Of a stretch of 64,000 nucleotides of DNA, positions 18,907 through 59,810 are shown in pieces. Numbering within the stretch: the first letter of the stretch is position 1; every line of letters starts with the position of its first letter. The stretch is from NCBI RefSeq assembly GCF_009914755.1, contig NC_060929.1; one strand, written 5' to 3'. Origin of the DNA: the human T2T-CHM13v2.0 reference genome, Homo sapiens. The notes below the pieces were generated by a model, which was given only the letters and a program-made list of their open reading frames with translations, ran no database searches and was not told the DNA's origin. A program made the position numbers and the translations under genes.

Positions 18907-21900
18907 GGCAGTTTATTAAGTATATATATGTATATATTCCATTAGTTCTGTCCTCCTAGAGAACCCTTACTAATACAGTGATGATGAGTATTTTTTTTTA
19001 TACTTGGGAGTTTGAATGTCTTCTTTTGAGGAATGTCTATTCAGAATATTTGCTCTATTATTTCTTTGTTGTTGTTGTTGTTGAGTTGTCTGAGTTCCTT
19101 GTATATTCTGGATATAAATTCTATGCTTAATGAATAGTTTACAAATATTTTTCCCTTTATTCAGGGTCTCTGAACTCTATTGATTATTTCCTTTGCTGTA
19201 CAGAAGATTTTTAGTTTGATATAATCCCATTTGCCTAGTTTTGCTTTTGTTGTTTGTGCTTTTAATGTTCTATCCATAAAATCTTTCCCCAGACCAATGT
19301 CCCCAAAAAATTTCCCAATGTTTTCTTCTGGTAATTTTATGGTTTTGTGTCTTACGTTTAAGTCTTTAATATATTTTTAGTTGATTTTTGTATGTTGTGA
19401 GAGATAGGAGTCTAGTTTTATTCTGCACATGGATATCCAGTTTTCCCAGCACCATTTATTGAATAGGGTGTCCTTTCCCTATTGTTAATTTTTGTTGACT
19501 TTGTTGAAAATCAGATGGCTGTAGGTGTGCAGTTTTATTTCTGGATTCTCTATTCTGTCTCATTGATCTATGTGTTTGTTTTTATGCCAATACCTGCTTT
19601 TTTGGTTACTATAGTTTTGTATATTTTGTAGTTGGGTAGCTTGATGCCTCTAGCTTTGTTCTTTTTGCTCAGGATTACTTTGGCTCTCTGGGGTATTTTT
19701 TTGTGGCTCCATATGAACTTTAGGATTTCATAATAAAATTTCTGTGAAAAATAGTATTTTGACAGAGATTGCATTGAATTTGTAGATTGCTTTGGGTAAT
19801 ATGCTTATTTTGACAATATTAATACTTTCAGTTCTTAAACATAGTTGTTCTTCCAATTTTGTGTGCACTTATCAATTTCTATCATCAATGTTTTGTAGTT
19901 TTTATTGTAGACATTGTTTACCTCCTTGGTTAAATTTATTCCTAGCATTTTTTTTGTAGGTATTGTAAATAGGATTGCTTTCTCAATGTCTTTTTCAGTT
20001 CATTATTGGTGTATAAAAACACTACCAATTTTTGTATGTTAATTTTGCATTCTGCAAATTTACTGAATTCATTTATCAGTTCTAAGAGTTCTTCGGTGAA
20101 GTTTTTAAATTTGTCTGTATACAAGATCATGTCATCTGCAAACCAGGGCAATTTGACTTCCTCTTTTCAAATTTGGATACCTTTTATATCTTTCTCCTCT
20201 CTAATTGCTCTGGCTAATACTTTCAGTATTATGTTGAATAAGAGTGGTAAAAGTTGGCAACCTTGTCTTGTCTCAGTTCTTAGAGGAACAGCTTTTAACT
20301 TTCTTCTGTTCAATATGATGTCAGTTGCAAATTTGTTGGAAATGGACATTACTGTGTTGAAGTACCTTCCTTACACATCTAATTTGTCAAAAGTTTTTTT
20401 TTTAATCATAACAGTATTTCTTTTTTTTTTCAAATGCTTTGTATCTTTTGAGATGATTGTGCAGTTTTTGTCCTTCATTCTCCTAATGTGATGTATTTCG
20501 TTTATTGATTTGCATTTGTTAAGTCATCCTTGAACCCCTGGAATAAATCTCTCTGGATGATAGTGTATAATCTTTTTCATGGCTATTGGTTTAGTTTGCT
20601 AATGTTTTGTTGAGCATGTTTTGCATATATGTTCATTAGAGATACTGGCCTGCAGTTTTGTTTTTAGTGTATGTGTGTCTTTGTCTGGTTTCAGTGTCAG
20701 GGCAATGCTGGCCTCATAGAATGAGTTTGAAAGCATTTCTTTGTTTTCAATATGTTGAAATAGTTTGAGGAGAATTGGTGTCAGTTCTTCTTTAAAAGTT
20801 TGGTGTGAAGTTTTCTAACTTTAAAAGTTATTAGTGAAGCTGTCTGGTCCTGGAATTTTCTTTGTTAGGAGACCTGTTACTACTGATTCAATTGCATTTC
20901 TCATTACTGAACTATTCAGATTTTCTATTTCTTCTTTGTTTAATCTTAGTGGGTCATATGTGGCCTGGAATTTATCCATTTCCTCTAGTTTTTCCTACTT
21001 GTTGATGTTTAGTTGTTCATAGTAATCTCTAATGATCCTTTGTGTTTCTGTGGTATCAATTGTAATATCTTTTTATTTCTGATTTTATTTGAGTATTTTC
21101 TCTTTTTAAAATAAACATCTAGCTAATTTTCCATTTCACTTACCTTGTTAAAAACCAACTTGTATTCTGTTGATCTTTTCTTTTCTTTAGTCTCTCTTTT
21201 GATAATTTTATGCTGATACTAATTAAGTTTCCACCTACTACTTTTGGGTTTGGTTTGTTCTTGGTTTTCTATTTCCTTAAGATGAAACGTTAGATTGTTT
21301 ATTGAAATCTTCCTGCTTTTTGATGCAGGCATTTATTGCTATTAACTTCCCTCTTAGTATTGCTTTTGTTGTATCCCATAAGTTTCGATATGTTGTGTTT
21401 TTATTTTCATTTGTTTCCATTTTTAAAAATTTTTCTTAATTTCTTCATTGATCTATTGTTTGTTTAGAAGTCTGTTGTTTAGTTTTCATGTATTTGTAGT
21501 TTCCAAAACTCCTCTTGTTATTGCTTTCTAGTTTTATTCCACTGTGGTCAGAAAAGATACTTGATATGAATTTGATTTTTAAAAATTTGTTGAGACTTGT
21601 TTTGTGGTCTAACATGTGGTCTACCCTGGAGAATACTCCATGTGCTAAAAAGAGAAATGTGTATTCTGCAACTGTTGGATGAACTGGTTTGTAAATATCT
21701 TTTAGGTTCATTTGGCCCATGGAGCAGTTTAAGATCGATATTTCTTTGTTGACTTTCTCTCTAGGTGATCTGTCCATTGCTAGGAGTGCAATGTTGAAAT
21801 CTCCATCTATTATTATGTTGGGGTCTATCTTTGCCTTTAGCTCTAATGGTATCTGTTTTATATATCTGTGTGCTCAAGTGTTGGGTGCATACATATTTAA

Positions 21901-53081: not shown

Positions 53082-55735
53082 CTCCCATACAATAACCACT
53101 AGGACAAAAGGAAAAATAAAACATCAGGTTGATTAGACTTACCAAGGCAAACTTTCAGTTTCAAGCTCCCTGCAAACAGTGGAAGTCAACCCTGACATAC
53201 TAAAACAAAAGGATTTATTGGAAAAATACTTGGGGCTTCTAGAATGGTGAGAAGCCTGAGGATAAGGCTGGAGAAAGACAAGTAGGCCACATTGAACATT
53301 TGTGGGGCCAGGATAAGAGTACAAGGGGTGGCTCATATACTATATGTTTAAATATTTATGAGTTATAAATCAAACTAATAAGCTATTAAATAAAAAATGT
53401 TCTATCCTTTACCCTTGCCAAATATGTATTCATAACAACAGAAAAGATGTGCTAAGCAACAGTTACTTCCAAATAACTGTGACTAGCATGCACATTTGCC
53501 CTGGGGCTATGCAGACACAGCAAAGGAATAAAGAGAGAGGAAAAAGAAGAATTCTCTCTGGCTCGCTGGATGCTTTCTTAGTCTCTTGATGGCTCAGGAA
53601 ATCCATAAAAGAAGCTCCCCATTTTTATCTCTGTTGGAGGTATTCTGGGAGGCTCTTCATTCTTATGTTCAGCTGCTCACCCACCAATCACCCCTTTTCC
53701 TCCCATTCTGAGCACTTATTTCATAAGCCACAAACTTTCTCTTTATCCTTCATAGTCCAAATTATGCAACCTCTGTTCACAGAGTGCCCTGACCCCCACC
53801 TCAGCCCCTGCTGGCATTACGCTTTCATACTTTGCAAAGGAACCTCTACCCTCCCCTTTTCTCACCACTCGTGGCCCCAGGAAGGGCCTAGCCAGACCAA
53901 ATATGGACACCCCAGACCAAGTTTTAGCCACACTCTCCTGCCTGCTTGCAATGAGCCACACTTTGGCCAACCCTAGGTCCTAGGAGTTTGCACACCTAGG
54001 GCAGGGTGGTCTACCCTCAGGATTATAAATATGGTGACCCACTGAATGTAGGCTGGGACCAGTTGGGCAGATAATTCTAGGGCCCTCAGTATCCAGAATA
54101 GGATGAGGGGCCTCAGGGTAAGCACATCTCCTTGGACCTGTTAGAACAAGAAACGAAGTCCTGGAGGACCAAGAATAGCCAGAAAAGCCTATTCAGGAAA
54201 GGTCTGCCATTGTTGCTGCTGCCTCTGCTGCTGGTAGTAGTTCAAGATTCAAGATTCAAGGTCCAGGGAGAAGCCCTCTGACTGGCCATACTTGGGTCTC
54301 CTGACTGCCCCTAGAGGACCAGATAGCAGTTAGAAGCAATATCATGCTACCATAGTTGAGAGGGAGAGGGGAAACTGGAAATTCTTATGCCAAGACAAGA
54401 TGCAATGGAAGAGGAATTCTCCAAATGAATATGAGAATGTTAGGAGGGAGAAGGGACACTATGGAATCACCTGGAAGGAAGCAAGGCCATTTATCTGTAA
54501 AATAACTTACCTGTGCAAGACAGAGATACAGGCACTACCTTTCTCTGAGAAGACTAATTCAGTAACAGTATAGAGGAGTAAAGTAGAGATGGGAAGATGA
54601 GTTAAGAACTCTCTCTACCTTGGTGTGAACATTAGTGGCCACCTCTGAGACAAGTAGTCATTTAAGATAATGTCCTCAGATTGCGCTGAGTGTGCTTGAA
54701 CTCCAGGTAATTCCTTCCAAGCTCTGTGGGTTACAGAGTGACTGCTCCTGCCCACCCGGGTAGGGGGTATGTGATGCTGAGTGAGGCAGGTAGCTCTCTG
54801 TTTGCCCCCACCATGAAATGCATTTGAAGACACAGAGGCAGACATACAGTCTTGTGTCTGGAAGAATGGCCCCTGGGTTGAGGTAACCACATTGAGCCCA
54901 CTATGTCTCAGAACACTTCTCTGTGAGAGATTAAATGGCTCCCTCATGGAATATTTATGTCACATGCACACAGAATGTGAAGGGACCTAGTAACACACAT
55001 AAAAAGTAAAAGAATTTATGATCTCAAAATATAAATGTGAATAAATGCAGAAAGCAGGCTGGGGGAAGAACCCCTTGTTTCATACCTCAACTTGTGAGTT
55101 TAATGCCTAGATCATGGTTAAGTGCTTTTGAAAATTGTAAAGATGATCTCTGGGATTTGTGATTACAAACTGTCTCCCACATGACCCATTATTTCAGAAG
55201 CTCTAATTCAAGTGTACAAACGCCTGTGTTTCTAGGCTGAATGATTCATGGGATTGGCTATATATTTTCTCTTTCGAAGGTTAAAGCAATGGTGATGTCT
55301 TGTACCTTATTAATTTCCTCTGTTCTCTTATTTTCTCTTTGTCTTTCCATGCAAGGCTTCTCTCTCTCCTCTGCCCTCCAGCTGTGCTCTTGCTTTAAAG
55401 TAGCCATCTCTCAGATGTTGCCATTTCTGTCAGTGGGGCAATCATGGTTCTTTTTGTTCAGAATTAATACCTGGATGACATCATCTACCCGCCCTCTTTC
55501 CTCATATCTAGTCTTTCATAATTTCTGTCCTCCCTGTCAATGTTGCCTGCATGGCAACTCACATATGCCTACCATCCCTTCATTCATTCCCATGGTCACC
55601 ATCCAGTTTCTATGCTTTCCCCCCTTACATCTATATTATGTCCAATGTCTCTTTTTAAAATTTTTTCTCCTTTCACTCACTCTTACATACTGTTATAAGA
55701 TTAGTATATTGTTGCATAAAAAATGATAAAGTGGG

Positions 55736-56131
<396 letters not shown>

Positions 56132-56953
56132 CTAGAAAATCTAGAAGAAATGGATAAATTCCTGGACACATACACTCTCCCAATACTAAAGCAGGAAGAA
56201 GTTGAATCCCTGACTAGACAAATAATAAGTGCTGAAATTGAGGCAGTAATTAATAACCTAACAACCAAAAAAAGCCCAGGACCAGATGGATTCATAGGCG
56301 AATTCTACCAGCAATACAAAGAGTAGTTGGTACCATTCCTTCTGAAACTATTCAAAACCATAGAAAAAGAAGGACTCCTTTCTAACTCATCTTATGAGGC
56401 CAGTATCATCCTGATAACAAAACCTGGCAGAGGCACAACAAAAAAAGAAAATTTCAGGCCAATATCCCTGATGAACATCAATGCGAAAATCCTTAATAAA
56501 ACCCTGGCAAACCAAATCCAGCAGCACATCAAAAAGCTTATCCCCCACGATCAAGTCAGCTTCATCCCTGGGATGCAAGGCTGGTTCAGCATACACAAAG
56601 CAATAAACAATCCATCACATAAACACAACTAATGACAAAAGCCGCATGGTTATCTCAATAGATGCAGAAAAGCCTCCGATAAAATTCAACACCGCTTCAT
56701 GCTAAAGACACTCAATAAACTAGTTATTGATGGAATACATCTCAAAATAGTAAGAGCTATTTATGACAAACTCACAGTCAATATCATACTGAATGGGCAA
56801 AAGCTGGAAGCATTCCCTTTGAAAACCACCACAAGACAAGGATGCCCTCTGTCACCACTTCTATTCAACATAGTATTGGAAGTTCTGGCCAGGGAAATCA
56901 GGCAAGAGAAAGAAATACAGGGTATTCAGATAGGAAGAGAGGAAGTAAAATGA

Positions 56954-57172
<219 letters not shown>

Positions 57173-58905
57173 TAACTTACAAGGGATGTGAAGGACCTGT
57201 TCAAGGAGAACTACAATACATTGGTCAAGAAAATAAGAGAGGACACAAACAAATGGAAAAACATTCCATGCTCATGGATAGGAAGAATCAATAACGTGAA
57301 AATGGCCCTACTGCCTAAAGTAATTTATAGATTCAATGCTATTCCCATCAAGCTACCACTGATTTTCTTCACAGAATTAGAAAAAAGTACTTTAAATGTC
57401 ATAAGAAACCAAAACAGAGCCTGTATAGCCAAGACAATCCTAAGCAAAAAGAACAAAGCTGGAGGCATCATGCTACCTGACTTCAAAGCATACCAAAAGG
57501 CTACAGTAACCAAAACAGCATGTTACTGGTACCAAAATAGATATATAGACCATGGAACAGAACACAGTCCCCAGAAATAACAACACACACCTACAACCAT
57601 CTGATCTTTGACAAACCTGACAAAAACAAGCAATGGGGAAACGATTCCCTATTTAATAAATGGTGTTGGGGAAACTGGCTACCCATATGCAGAAAACTGA
57701 AACTGGACCCCTTCCTTACACCTTATGCAAAAATTAACTCAAGATGGATTAAAGACCTAAATGTAAGACCTAAAACCATAAAAATGCTAGAAGAAAACCT
57801 AGGCAATACCATTCAGGAAATAGGCATGGGCAAAGACTTCATGACTAAAACACCAAAAGGAATGGCAACAAAAGCCAAAATTGACAAATGGGATCTAATT
57901 AAAGTAAAGAGCTTCTGCACAGCAAAAGAAACTATCATTAGAGTGAACAGGAAACCTACAGAATGGGAGAAAATTTTTGCAATCTATCCATCTGACAAAG
58001 AGCTAATATCTTGTAGATATTAAGAATCTACAAGAAACTTAAACAAATTTACAAGAAAAAAAACAACCCCATCAAAAAATTGGTGAAGGATATGAACAGA
58101 CACTTCTCAAAAGAAGACATTTATGAAGCCAACAAACATATGAAAAAAAGCTCATCATCACTGGTCATTAAAGAAATACAAATGAAAACCACAATGAGAT
58201 ACCATCTCATGCCAGTTAGAATGGAGATCATAAAAAAGTCAGGAAGCAACAGATAGTGGAGAGGATGTGGAGAATTAGGAACGCTTTTACACTGTTGGGA
58301 GTGTAAATTAGTTCAACCACTGTGGAAGACAGTGTGGCGATTCCTCAAGGATCTAGAACCAGAAATACCATTTGACCCAGCAATCCCATTAGTGGGTATA
58401 TACCCAAAGGATTATAAATCATTCTACTATAAAGACACATGCACACGTATTTTTATTGTAGCACTATTTACAATAGCAAAAACTTGGGACCAATGCAAAT
58501 GCCCATCAATGATAGACTGGATAAAGAAAATGTGGCTCATATACACCATGGAATACTATGCAGCCACAAAAAAGAATGAGTTCATGCCCTTTGCAGGGAC
58601 ATGAATAAGTCTGGAAACCATCATCCTCAGCAAACTAACACAGGAACAGAAAACCAAACACCTCATGTTCTCACTCATAAGTGGGAGTTGAACAATGAGA
58701 ACACATGGACACAGGGAGGGGATCATCGCACACCAGGGGCCTGTCAGTGGGTAGGGGGCAAGGGGAGGGATAGTATTAGGAGAAATATCTAATGTAGATG
58801 ATGGGTTTATGGGTGGAGCAAACCATTATGGCACATGTATACCTATGTAACAAATCTGTACGTTCTGCCCATGTATCCCAGAACTTAAGGTATCATAATA
58901 ATAAA

Positions 58906-59052
58906 ATACAGAAACAAGCTATCTGTGAAAATGCTTTGTGATGTGTGGATTCATCTCACAGAATGGAACCTGTGTTTCATTTCACCAGGTTGGAAACACC
59001 ACTCTTTTTTAAGAATTTATGAAGAGACATTTCCGAACCCATTGAAGCCTAT

Positions 59053-59056
<4 letters not shown>
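58906..59056 (+). repeat. Alpha-satellite monomer (about 150 bp, A-type, no CENP-B box) transduced by L1
   Basis: AGAAACAAGCTATCTGTGAAAATGCTTTGTGATGTGTGGATTCATCTCACAGA...GGTTGGAAACAC...CTTTTT...AGAATTT...GACATTT...CCATTGAAGCCTATAGT follows the alphoid consensus order. Followed by A29. Confidence 0.88.
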
Positions 59057-59086
<30 letters not shown>

Positions 59087-59092
59087 TTACTA

Positions 59093-59481
59093 TCAGCAAA
59101 CTAACACAGGAACAGAAAACCAAACACCTCATGTTCTCACTTATAAGTGTGAGTTAAACAATGAGAACACATAGACACAGGGAGGGGATCATCACACACC
59201 GGGGGCCTGTCAGTGGGTAGGGGGCAAGGGGAGGGATAGCATTAGGAGAAATACCTAATATAGATGATGGGTTGATGGGTGCAGCAAACCATTATGGCAC
59301 ATGTATACCTATGTAACAAATCTGTACATTCTGCACATTTATCCCAGAAATTAAGGTATCATAATAATAAAATAAAGAAACAAGCTATCTGTGAAAATGC
59401 TTTGGGAAAGACTCTTTTTGAAGAATTTATGAAGAGACATTTCTGAAACTATTGAAGCCTATAGTAAAAAAAAAAAAAAAA
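59093..59481 (+). repeat. Tandem duplicate of L1 3'UTR + alpha-satellite (internal deletion of about 55 bp) + poly(A)
   Basis: Matches 58627-59084 with about 16 differences in about 285 nt of the L1 part, and shares private variants with it. Confidence 0.92.
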
Positions 59482-59529
59482 GATTCCTGTATTGTTGCTA
59501 AACACTATTTTAAAACTTATGAAATTTCC

Positions 59530-59810
59530 CAGTATGAAATATAAATTTCAAATTCCCTAACTTAGCATTAAAGGCTCACTCCATTGGTACCTACATTTTC
59601 TCTACCTCACCCCCCTCATCTCTGTACTGTTCCACAAAGAATTCTTGACCAGCTCAAGAGCATTCTCACCTGTGGCAATCTCTGCTTCTTGTATTCCAAC
59701 TGCCTGGAATTCCTTTTCTTTGCTTCTACTCTTGCCAAACACTGTTTATCTTACAAAGCTCATCAGAAATCTTACCTTGACTTTGGAACCTTTTCTGACT
59801 GCCTAATATA
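59530..59810 (+). mobile_element. L2 fragment
   Basis: AAATTTCAAATTCCCTAACTTAGCATTAAAGGCTC...TGCCTGGAATTCC...CCTTTTCTGAC. Confidence 0.6.

What the first reader, a model, noticed from the sequence alone, without database searches (positions are those of the whole stretch)
58906..59084. Centromeric alpha-satellite carried to a non-satellite site by L1 3' transduction
Seen in sequence: directly after the L1PA 3'UTR and its AATAAA (about 58900) come about 150 bp in alphoid consensus order (GCTTTGTGATGTGTGGATTCATCTCACAGA...TTGGAAACAC...CCATTGAAGCCTATAGT). An A29 tail follows, and the whole unit lies inside the L1 target-site duplication. The flanks are ordinary MIR/L2 DNA with no other satellite. 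The poly(A) starts where the A-run of the alphoid A-box would be, there is no CENP-B box, and no canonical AATAAA precedes the tail. Established: L1 transcription can read through its weak poly(A) signal and mobilise 3' flanking DNA. Inference: the source L1 sat in an alpha-satellite array, probably an old monomeric layer, was transcribed in the germline, and exported a sample of it. The tag could identify sibling insertions from the same centromere-resident source element.
Basis: partly seen in the sequence, partly recalled or inferred. Interest (0 to 1): 0.8.

Follow-up and report, generated by a model that had tools for sequence, protein, structure and literature searches.

The report
L1-transduced alpha-satellite monomer, locally duplicated
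One centromere-type (alpha-satellite) repeat unit sits on the arm of chromosome 5 because an old L1 retrotransposon copied it along behind its own tail, a known mechanism, and a piece of the insert was duplicated on the spot.

Summary
Window 58898/58901-59055 is about 0.9 of an alpha-satellite monomer. It matches 172-bp tandem arrays at E down to 1e-45 and is 87.7% identical to the majority state of 464 array monomers. It follows an L1 3' end in sense orientation and is followed by A29.

The real 17-bp target-site duplication (55699-55715 / 59482-59498, 14/17) encloses both copies. Only its first 9 nt follow A29.

Best reading: one L1PA7 insertion with an alphoid 3' transduction, then a roughly 466-bp tandem duplication. 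No donor and no sibling with this junction was found in T2T-CHM13.

The alphoid is already catalogued as sat_823 (Feliciello et al. 2020, PMC7719264), which invokes eccDNA and microhomology and denies any role for retroelements. The anatomy here contradicts that for sat_823. A second entry from that paper, sat_607, is a clean L1PA2 case with a 16/17 TSD. Five other arm alphoid loci showed no L1 signature, so this is a minority route.

The mechanism is known and interest is modest.

The parts
55699..55715 (+). 5' copy of the 17-bp target-site duplication (GATTAGTATATTGTTGC)
   Evidence: It matches 59482-59498 at 14/17. Anchored shuffles reached this in 1 of 100000. It abuts the first L1 base.
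55716..55735 (+). 5'-truncated start of the L1 (within ORF2), cut off from the rest by an Alu
   Evidence: Sequence read. Homology to an older L1 copy in the window reaches this stretch. Its position within ORF2 is recalled, not tested.
55736..56049 (+). Alu inserted into the L1, with an (AAAAC)n-type tail and its own duplication (AAATGATAAAG)
   Evidence: context print. It is a later event and not part of the transduction.
56050..58900 (+). Body and 3' UTR of the L1 (called L1PA7 in PMC7719264 Table 1), ending in AATAATAAAATA
   Evidence: It is 84-91% identical to other L1 3' ends over the last 270 bp. The subfamily name comes from the paper.
58901..59055 (+). Transduced alpha-satellite monomer (about 0.9 unit, from the A-run ATAAAA.CAGAAAC to CCTATAGT). 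It equals the published sat_823.
   Evidence: and (hg38 chr5:161040056-161040240).
59056..59084 (+). A29 tail of copy 1
   Evidence: TRF.
59085..59093 (+). GATTACTAT, the first 9 nt of the TSD, marking the right end of the duplicated unit
   Evidence: It matches the 5' copy at 8/9 and the 3' copy at 7/9, and equals the majority state of the three.
59094..59363 (+). Copy 2: the last 270 bp of the same L1 (homologous to 58628-58897)
   Evidence: 15 differences in 269-270 aligned sites against copy 1. It shares 9 derived states with copy 1.
59364..59465 (+). Copy 2: the same L1/alphoid junction and the alphoid with a 56-bp internal deletion bounded by TTG microhomology
   Evidence: hits at 59367-59407 and 59411-59465.
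59466..59481 (+). A16 tail of copy 2
   Evidence: TRF.
59482..59498 (+). 3' copy of the 17-bp target-site duplication (GATTCCTGTATTGTTGC)

Best explanation
This is a molecular fossil, not a working element.

Proposed sequence of events:
1. An L1 sat in sense orientation in a divergent, monomeric alpha-satellite array. It had integrated at the monomer's A-run (inferred).
2. It was transcribed in the germline past its own poly(A) signal. The RNA ended about 155 nt downstream, at the next A-rich stretch of the monomer (inferred).
3. Target-primed reverse transcription inserted a 5'-truncated L1, 0.9 alphoid monomer and a poly(A) tail into chr5. This made a 17-bp TSD (shown by anatomy).
4. An Alu later landed in the L1.
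5. A roughly 466-bp unit (58628-59093: the last 270 bp of L1, the alphoid, the tail and 9 nt of the 3' TSD) was duplicated in tandem.
6. The second copy then lost 56 bp of alphoid and part of its tail.
For: - Alphoid identity.
- Order and orientation are L1 3' end, alphoid, A29. The 17-bp TSD encloses everything (14/17; 1 of 100000 anchored shuffles).
- Both copies carry the same junction. The 35-nt junction pattern with up to 3 mismatches occurs only at these two places in the 3.1-Gb assembly (2 hits).
- A 40-mer carrying three of the nine shared-derived L1 states is exact only in the two copies. There were 0 hits at 1 mismatch and 15 at 2 mismatches. So no wider source lineage is visible, which favours local duplication.
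- The copies differ at 21 of 371 sites, or 5.7%. Polarised on 14 related L1 ends over 261 sites, there are 9 shared-derived changes, 5 private to copy 1 and 8 private to copy 2.
- Donor-type sites exist. There were 32 exact hits of an L1 3' end followed within 20-90 nt by an alphoid motif. All but one lie, by recalled centromere positions, in or near pericentromeres. About 21 have the L1 tail merging into the same A-run.
- Independent parallels exist. sat_607 at C2:70.443M is a twin-primed L1PA2, then A11, about 155 bp of alphoid and A8, inside a 16/17 TSD at a TTTT/AAAAAG site. C2:238.157M is an older L1, then A10, 49 nt of alphoid and (AAAG)n.
Against: - No donor was found. The L1-end/alphoid pattern hits only the window and C2:238.157M. 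The DNA searches scored only 40 of 1251-1694 candidates.
- There is no A-tail of the source L1 between the L1 end and the alphoid, unlike the two chr2 cases.
- No canonical poly(A) signal lies ahead of the tail, so how the RNA 3' end formed is unexplained.
- The EN site (TCTT/ATAA-like) is a weak match to TTTT/AA.
- PMC7719264 dates the alphoid to Hominidae, while the L1 is called L1PA7, an older family by recalled ages. The 5.7% divergence between copies is also somewhat high for a duplication in the Hominidae ancestor (recalled ape divergences).
- The structure alone cannot tell a tandem duplication from a second nested insertion.
- No outgroup genomes were available.
Confidence: 0.7

Rival explanations
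1. Two retrotransposition events. A second, shorter sibling from the same alphoid-tagged source L1 inserted into the A-tail of the first, making a TSD of A(n)+GATTACTAT.
For: The layout is exactly what a nested insertion into a poly(A) tail would give. Private changes in the two copies (5 and 8) are similar to those of the closest unrelated L1 ends (7-9), so the copies could be as old as the family.
Against: The junction and the shared-derived 40-mer occur nowhere else in the assembly. The only two surviving offspring of a source would then have to hit the same 30-bp target, which is far less likely a priori than a local duplication (inference).
Confidence: 0.1
2. RT template switch instead of read-through. 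TPRT started on a polyadenylated alpha-satellite RNA. At the monomer's A-run the cDNA jumped to the poly(A)/3' end of an L1 RNA, giving an L1-alphoid chimera with no L1 resident in an array.
For: There is no source-L1 A-tail at the window junction, and alphoid and L1 homology overlap over ATAAAATA at 58898-58906. That is the kind of microhomology a switch would use.
Against: L1s sitting in sense orientation at exactly this A-run of alpha monomers are common (about 21 of 32), so donors for read-through exist. The two chr2 parallels keep an A10-A11 tract like a genomic L1 tail. By recall, known template-switch chimeras place the L1 part at the 3' end, not the 5' end.
Confidence: 0.08
3. The published model (PMC7719264). 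An alphoid fragment excised as circular DNA recombined by 2-10 bp of microhomology (TAA) between two pre-existing L1PA7 fragments in the Hominidae ancestor.
For: The paper dates sat_823 to Hominidae and lists it as 'between 2 L1PA7' with duplication TAA.
Against: - The second L1PA7 piece carries the same L1/alphoid junction and alphoid remnants. So the alphoid was joined to the L1 end before the two pieces existed.
- The poly(A) follows the alphoid rather than the L1, and the 17-bp TSD encloses the whole.
- A 3-nt 'duplication' has no statistical weight.
- The paper tested outgroup loci only for alphoids embedded in repeats, and sat_823 is not in its Table 2.
Confidence: 0.03

Closest known systems
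L1 3' transduction (Moran 1999; Goodier 2000; Pickeral 2000, all recalled; catalogued for T2T-CHM13 in the Hoyt et al. preprint 10.1101/2021.07.12.451456, passages read)
   Same: An L1 3' end, then foreign flank DNA, then poly(A), all inside one TSD, with 5' truncation.
   Different: The cargo is a satellite monomer. No donor locus was identified. No source-L1 A-tail sits at the junction. The insert was later partly duplicated.
sat_823 in Feliciello et al. 2020, Genome Biol Evol (PMC7719264; abstract, Table 1 passages, section 16 and supplement rows read)
   Same: It is the same locus: hg38 chr5:161040056-161040240, 101 kb from LINC02159, between two L1PA7.
   Different: The paper calls it 0.7 monomer, inserted by eccDNA and microhomology recombination with 'TAA' duplicated. 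It states that retroelements play no part. Here the anatomy points to L1-mediated co-mobilisation followed by a duplication.
sat_607 (TGFA region, L1PA2) of the same paper, at C2:70443170-70443328 in CHM13
   Same: L1 3' end, an A-run, about 155 bp of alphoid beginning at the same monomer phase and ending in the same A-rich stretch, a short poly(A) and a TSD.
   Different: It is younger and a different monomer type (best array hits 93%). The L1 is twin-primed (inverted 5' part). It keeps an A11 between L1 and alphoid and has no later duplication.
AluSx3-WaluSat (Hoyt et al. preprint, passages read)
   Same: A satellite unit picked up by retroelement transduction and carried to other chromosomes.
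   Different: The carrier is an Alu and the unit is 64 nt. That unit later expanded into arrays, whereas the alphoid here stayed single apart from the local duplicate.

Membership tests
L1 3' transduction | An L1 3' end in sense orientation directly upstream of the non-L1 segment | tested here: met
L1 3' transduction | A poly(A) tail after the non-L1 segment rather than after the L1 | tested here: met
   A29 at 59056-59084. There is no A-run between the L1 and the alphoid.
L1 3' transduction | A target-site duplication flanking L1, cargo and tail | tested here: met
   17 bp, 14/17, 1 of 100000 anchored shuffles. It encloses the duplicated copy as well.
L1 3' transduction | An L1 endonuclease-type target (TTTT/AA on the primed strand) | tested here: inconclusive
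   The context ...TTATAA|GATTAG gives a TCTT/ATAA-like site, a weak variant (context). The consensus is recalled.
L1 3' transduction | A donor locus, meaning an L1 followed by the same flank | tested here: not met
   There is no other hit for the junction or for the L1-end/alphoid pattern except C2:238.157M. The searches need near-exact anchors or score only 40 candidates, so a decayed or lost donor is not excluded. The class of donor is present.
L1 3' transduction | An empty site in species that split before the insertion | not testable with these tools
   No other primate genome is held.
Alpha satellite | Homology to the roughly 171-bp monomer over most of its length | tested here: met
   The arrays have period 172.
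Alpha satellite | Tandem head-to-tail arrangement | tested here: not met
   There is a single 0.9 monomer. The second remnant is 310 bp away and belongs to the duplicated unit.
Alpha satellite | A CENP-B box (B-type monomer) | tested here: not met
   No match in the alphoid. The tail starts where the box position begins, so the site is cut off. The motif is recalled.
Tandem duplication (post-insertion) | Two adjacent copies sharing derived states and a junction found nowhere else | tested here: met
Tandem duplication (post-insertion) | A single-copy allele in a species that split after the insertion | not testable with these tools
   No other primate genome is held.

The most novel reading that the evidence does not exclude
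L1 elements resident in (peri)centromeric alpha-satellite were transcribed and retrotransposed in the primate germline repeatedly. At least three independent events are seen here: an older L1PA, an L1PA7 and an L1PA2. Their 3' transductions would account for the subset of published 'dispersed euchromatic alpha repeats' that abut L1PA 3' ends, which is seven Table 1 entries in PMC7719264, two of them checked here. This would overturn that paper's conclusion that retroelements play no part. It would also give dated tags of when particular satellite layers were open to Pol II in the germline.
Probability: 0.5. Interest if true: 0.5.

Novelty: new member of a known kind. Interest (0 to 1): 0.35.

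Why it matters
It corrects the published mechanism for at least two catalogued dispersed alpha repeats, sat_823 and sat_607. It also shows that L1s lodged in satellite arrays could still be expressed and mobilised. The tagged inserts are small, datable samples of satellite layers that have since turned over. However, the mechanism itself is textbook. The route is a minority one: 0 of 5 other arm alphoid loci examined had it. No function is implied.

Tried and rejected
- Sibling search by junction found only the two window copies.
- Donor search by L1-end/alphoid pattern found only the window and C2:238.157M.
- The 33-mer shared with the chr2 element is the family consensus (606 hits with up to 2 mismatches, 49 exact including the window). 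It therefore says nothing about kinship.
- L1s found inside the nearest arm arrays (C3:81.02M and C5:24.0M) are antisense to the alphoid or 3'-truncated, so they are not donors.
- Donor search for sat_607 gave a best non-self hit of 93%, with 40 of 3797 candidates scored.
- Timing by polarised changes could not separate duplication from nested insertion.
- Five arm alphoid loci were picked through the 33-mer without regard to L1: C19:48.86M, C15:91.67M, C6:54.83M, C4:55.31M and C3:128.39M. None has an L1 3' end upstream or a poly(A) downstream (0 of 5).
- Six literature searches for L1 transduction of alpha satellite listed no paper reporting it. The supplements of the Hoyt et al. preprint, which hold the transduction tables, are closed, and the journal version is not held. 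This locus could therefore be listed there.
- Earlier findings were not open.

Full report
WHAT IS THERE

Reading 55500-59700 shows a 5'-truncated L1 starting at 55716. It is interrupted by an Alu (55736-56049), resumes at 56050 and ends in ...CTTAAGGTATCATAATAATAAAATA near 58900. Next come about 155 bp that are not L1, then A29 at 59056-59084 (TRF).

A search of the window's own assembly (T2T-CHM13) with 58890-59060 gave 228 matches at E<=0.001. Only 40 of 1694 candidates were scored. Apart from self, the best hits are 86-87% identical (E 1.4e-45 and weaker). They lie about 171 bp apart in arrays at C1:103.9M, C5:24.0M, CX:57.4-57.5M, C16:38.2-38.5M, C19:30.2M, C3:81.0M, C4:12.26M and C17:28.1M.

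TRF on two of these loci gives period 172, about 18 copies per 3 kb and only 71-73% matches between neighbouring units. They are therefore divergent monomeric arrays, not higher-order repeats, at least on a 3-kb scale. The TRF consensus shares long exact runs with the window, for example GTGATGTGTGGATTCATCTCACAGAATGGAACCTGTGTTT.

Against the majority state of 464 distinct monomers taken from the fetched arrays, the window monomer is 87.7% identical. The array monomers themselves have a median of 81.6% and an interquartile range of 78.4-85.0%. The alphoid call is therefore secure. Homology begins at 58898-58901, overlapping the L1's last bases, and ends at CCTATAGT (59055).

There is no CENP-B box (the motif is recalled). 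The tail begins just where that box position would start. No AATAAA or ATTAAA lies in the alphoid apart from the L1's own at 58900.

After A29 come GATTACTAT and then a second partial copy. It holds the last 270 bp of the same L1 (59094-59363), the same L1/alphoid junction, the alphoid with 56 bp missing between two TTG triplets, and A16 at 59466-59481.

The true TSD is GATTAGTATATTGTTGC (55699-55715) against GATTCCTGTATTGTTGC (59482-59498), a 14/17 match. Only 1 of 100000 anchored shuffles reached this, and 7 of 2000 shuffles when any offset in 40x40 nt was allowed. The 9 nt after A29 are the first 9 nt of that TSD. They match the 5' copy at 8/9 and the 3' copy at 7/9, and equal the majority state of the three.

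The locus therefore reads: TSD, then L1 (with the Alu), alphoid, A29, TSD[1-9], then L1 3' 270 bp, alphoid with the deletion, A16, and the full TSD.

ONE INSERTION PLUS A DUPLICATION, OR TWO INSERTIONS?

A tandem duplication of 58628-59093 and a nested insertion of a sibling into the first tail give the same layout, so the structure cannot decide between them. Three results favour duplication.
- The 35-nt junction, with up to 3 mismatches, occurs only at these two places in 3.1 Gb.
- The two copies share nine derived L1 states relative to 14 related L1 ends over 261 polarised sites.
- A 40-mer holding three of those states is exact only in the two copies, with no hit at 1 mismatch and 15 at 2 mismatches that carry only some of the states.

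A source lineage with these states has thus left no other trace. Two lone offspring hitting the same 30-bp target is far less likely than a local duplication (inference).

The copies differ at 21 of 371 aligned sites, or 5.7%: 15 of 269 in the L1 part and 6 of 102 in the alphoid. Private changes are 5 for copy 1 and 8 for copy 2, against 7-9 in the closest unrelated L1 ends and 7-33 in all 14. Timing therefore does not settle whether the split came well after the insertion.

IS IT TRANSDUCTION?

Four features fit L1 co-mobilisation.
- The cargo lies in sense orientation between the L1 3' end and the poly(A), inside the TSD.
- It starts at the monomer's A-run (array consensus GATAAAAACTAGAAACAAGCTATCTGTG).
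- It ends in the next A-rich stretch (CCTATAGTGAAAAAC...).
- That A-run is where L1s usually sit in alpha arrays.

On the last point, the pattern ACTTAAAGT-N{20,90}-TTTGTGATGTGTG has 32 exact hits. All but one lie, by my recalled centromere positions, in or near pericentromeres. In about 21 of them the L1 tail runs straight into ...AAAAACTAGACAGAAG. Another 4-6 join at the other A-rich stretch and 5 join elsewhere. This is my reading of the strings. It includes evident paralogous duplicates, and the gap limits bias which phases can be seen. Donor-type sites are therefore common.

The donor itself was not found. ACTTAARGT-N{3,45}-GCTATCTGTGAAAA hits only window copy 1 and C2:238.157M. L1s in the nearest arm arrays are antisense or truncated.

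Two things remain unexplained. No A-tail of the source L1 sits at the junction, and no poly(A) signal precedes the tail. An RT template switch from an alphoid RNA to an L1 RNA at the A-run is therefore kept as a minor rival.

PARALLELS

The single arm hit, C2:70443147, was fetched. It is a twin-primed L1, with the 5' part inverted and 88.5% identity to the window L1. It is followed by A11, about 155 bp of alphoid starting at CTAGACAGAA and ending at GGAAATT, and then A8. The TSDs are AAAAAGTACATATAATT and AAAAAATACATATAATT, at a TTTT/AAAAAG site. By position it is sat_607 of PMC7719264 (hg38 chr2:70431415-70431597, 'between L1PA2 and Charlie8').

C2:238.157M holds an older 5'-truncated L1, then A10, 49 nt of alphoid and a long (AAAG)n, with a decayed possible TSD. 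Its 33-nt identity with the window is only the family consensus (606 hits with up to 2 mismatches). It is therefore an independent event, not a proven sibling.

Five arm alphoid loci chosen through that 33-mer without regard to L1 showed no L1 3' end upstream and no poly(A) downstream (0 of 5). L1 transduction is thus one route among others.

WHAT IS IN PRINT

Feliciello et al. 2020 (PMC7719264) list this alphoid as sat_823: 0.7 monomer, 101,431 bp from LINC02159, 'between 2 L1PA7', dated to Hominidae, duplicated sequence TAA, hg38 chr5:161040056-161040240. I read the abstract, Table 1 passages, all of section 16 and two supplement rows.

The paper proposes eccDNA and microhomology recombination. 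It states that there is no indication that retroelements play a role. Its outgroup test (Table 2) covers only alphoids embedded in repeats, not sat_823.

The Hoyt et al. preprint catalogues L1, Alu and SVA transductions in CHM13 and describes an Alu-transduced satellite unit, WaluSat (passages read).

Six full-text searches listed no paper reporting L1 transduction of alpha satellite. I judged this from titles and abstracts, plus passages of PMC10415145 (irrelevant).

VERDICT

The alphoid is a known catalogue entry whose published mechanism looks wrong, and the mechanism proposed here is a textbook one.

The Hominidae date in the paper may reflect the duplication rather than the arrival of the alphoid, or the L1 may be younger than its label. 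Only outgroup genomes can tell. L1PA ages, ape divergences, CHM13 centromere positions and the L1 EN consensus are recalled, not tested here.

Noticed in passing
window 55736-56049: An Alu with an (AAAAC)n-type tail is inserted into the 5' part of the L1. It is flanked by its own duplication AAATGATAAAG.
   Followed up: partly
window 20835-21140 (- strand): An older, diverged L1 fragment, 69% identical to 56060-56294. It was used only to place the 5' end of the L1 under study.
   Followed up: partly
L094+L093 (G000:C2:70441238-70443340): The published sat_607 is a twin-primed (5'-inverted) L1PA2 carrying about 155 bp of alphoid between A11 and A8, inside a 16/17 TSD. It is a cleaner L1 3' transduction of alpha satellite than the window's. 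The best array match for its monomer is only 93% (C12:34.58M).
   Followed up: yes
L033 (G000:C2:238156700-238157700, - strand): A 5'-truncated older L1, then A10 and 49 nt of alphoid, whose tail has grown into a roughly 260-bp (AAAG)n microsatellite. The flanking duplication is decayed (about 11-12 of 17, partly at CpG sites).
   Followed up: partly
one search hit list (32 places, mostly pericentromeric): L1 3' ends that sit in sense orientation in alpha arrays join the monomer mostly at the AAAAACTAGACAGAAG run (about 21 of 32). Less often they join at the GGAAAAGGAAATATC run (4-6). Alpha monomers thus offer two preferred L1 endonuclease sites.
   Followed up: partly
L095 (G000:C19:48863287-48863340, - strand): A roughly 50-nt alphoid fragment (CCACCATAAAAACTAGAAACAAGCTATCTGTGAAAATGCTTTGTGATGTG) lies inside GC-rich unique sequence with no L1, no poly(A) and no neighbouring monomers. 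How it got there is unexplained.
   Followed up: no
L096 (G000:C15:91669200-91669770): Two alphoid pieces lie in inverted orientation to each other (a palindrome-like pair) on a chromosome arm, without L1.
   Followed up: no
L009 (G000:C3:81019619-81020620) and L020 (G000:C5:23999705-24000890): L1 copies 85-88% identical to the window L1 lie inside the arm alpha arrays at chr3:81.0M and chr5:24.0M. The first is antisense to the alphoid and the second is 3'-truncated and antisense, so neither is a donor.
   Followed up: yes
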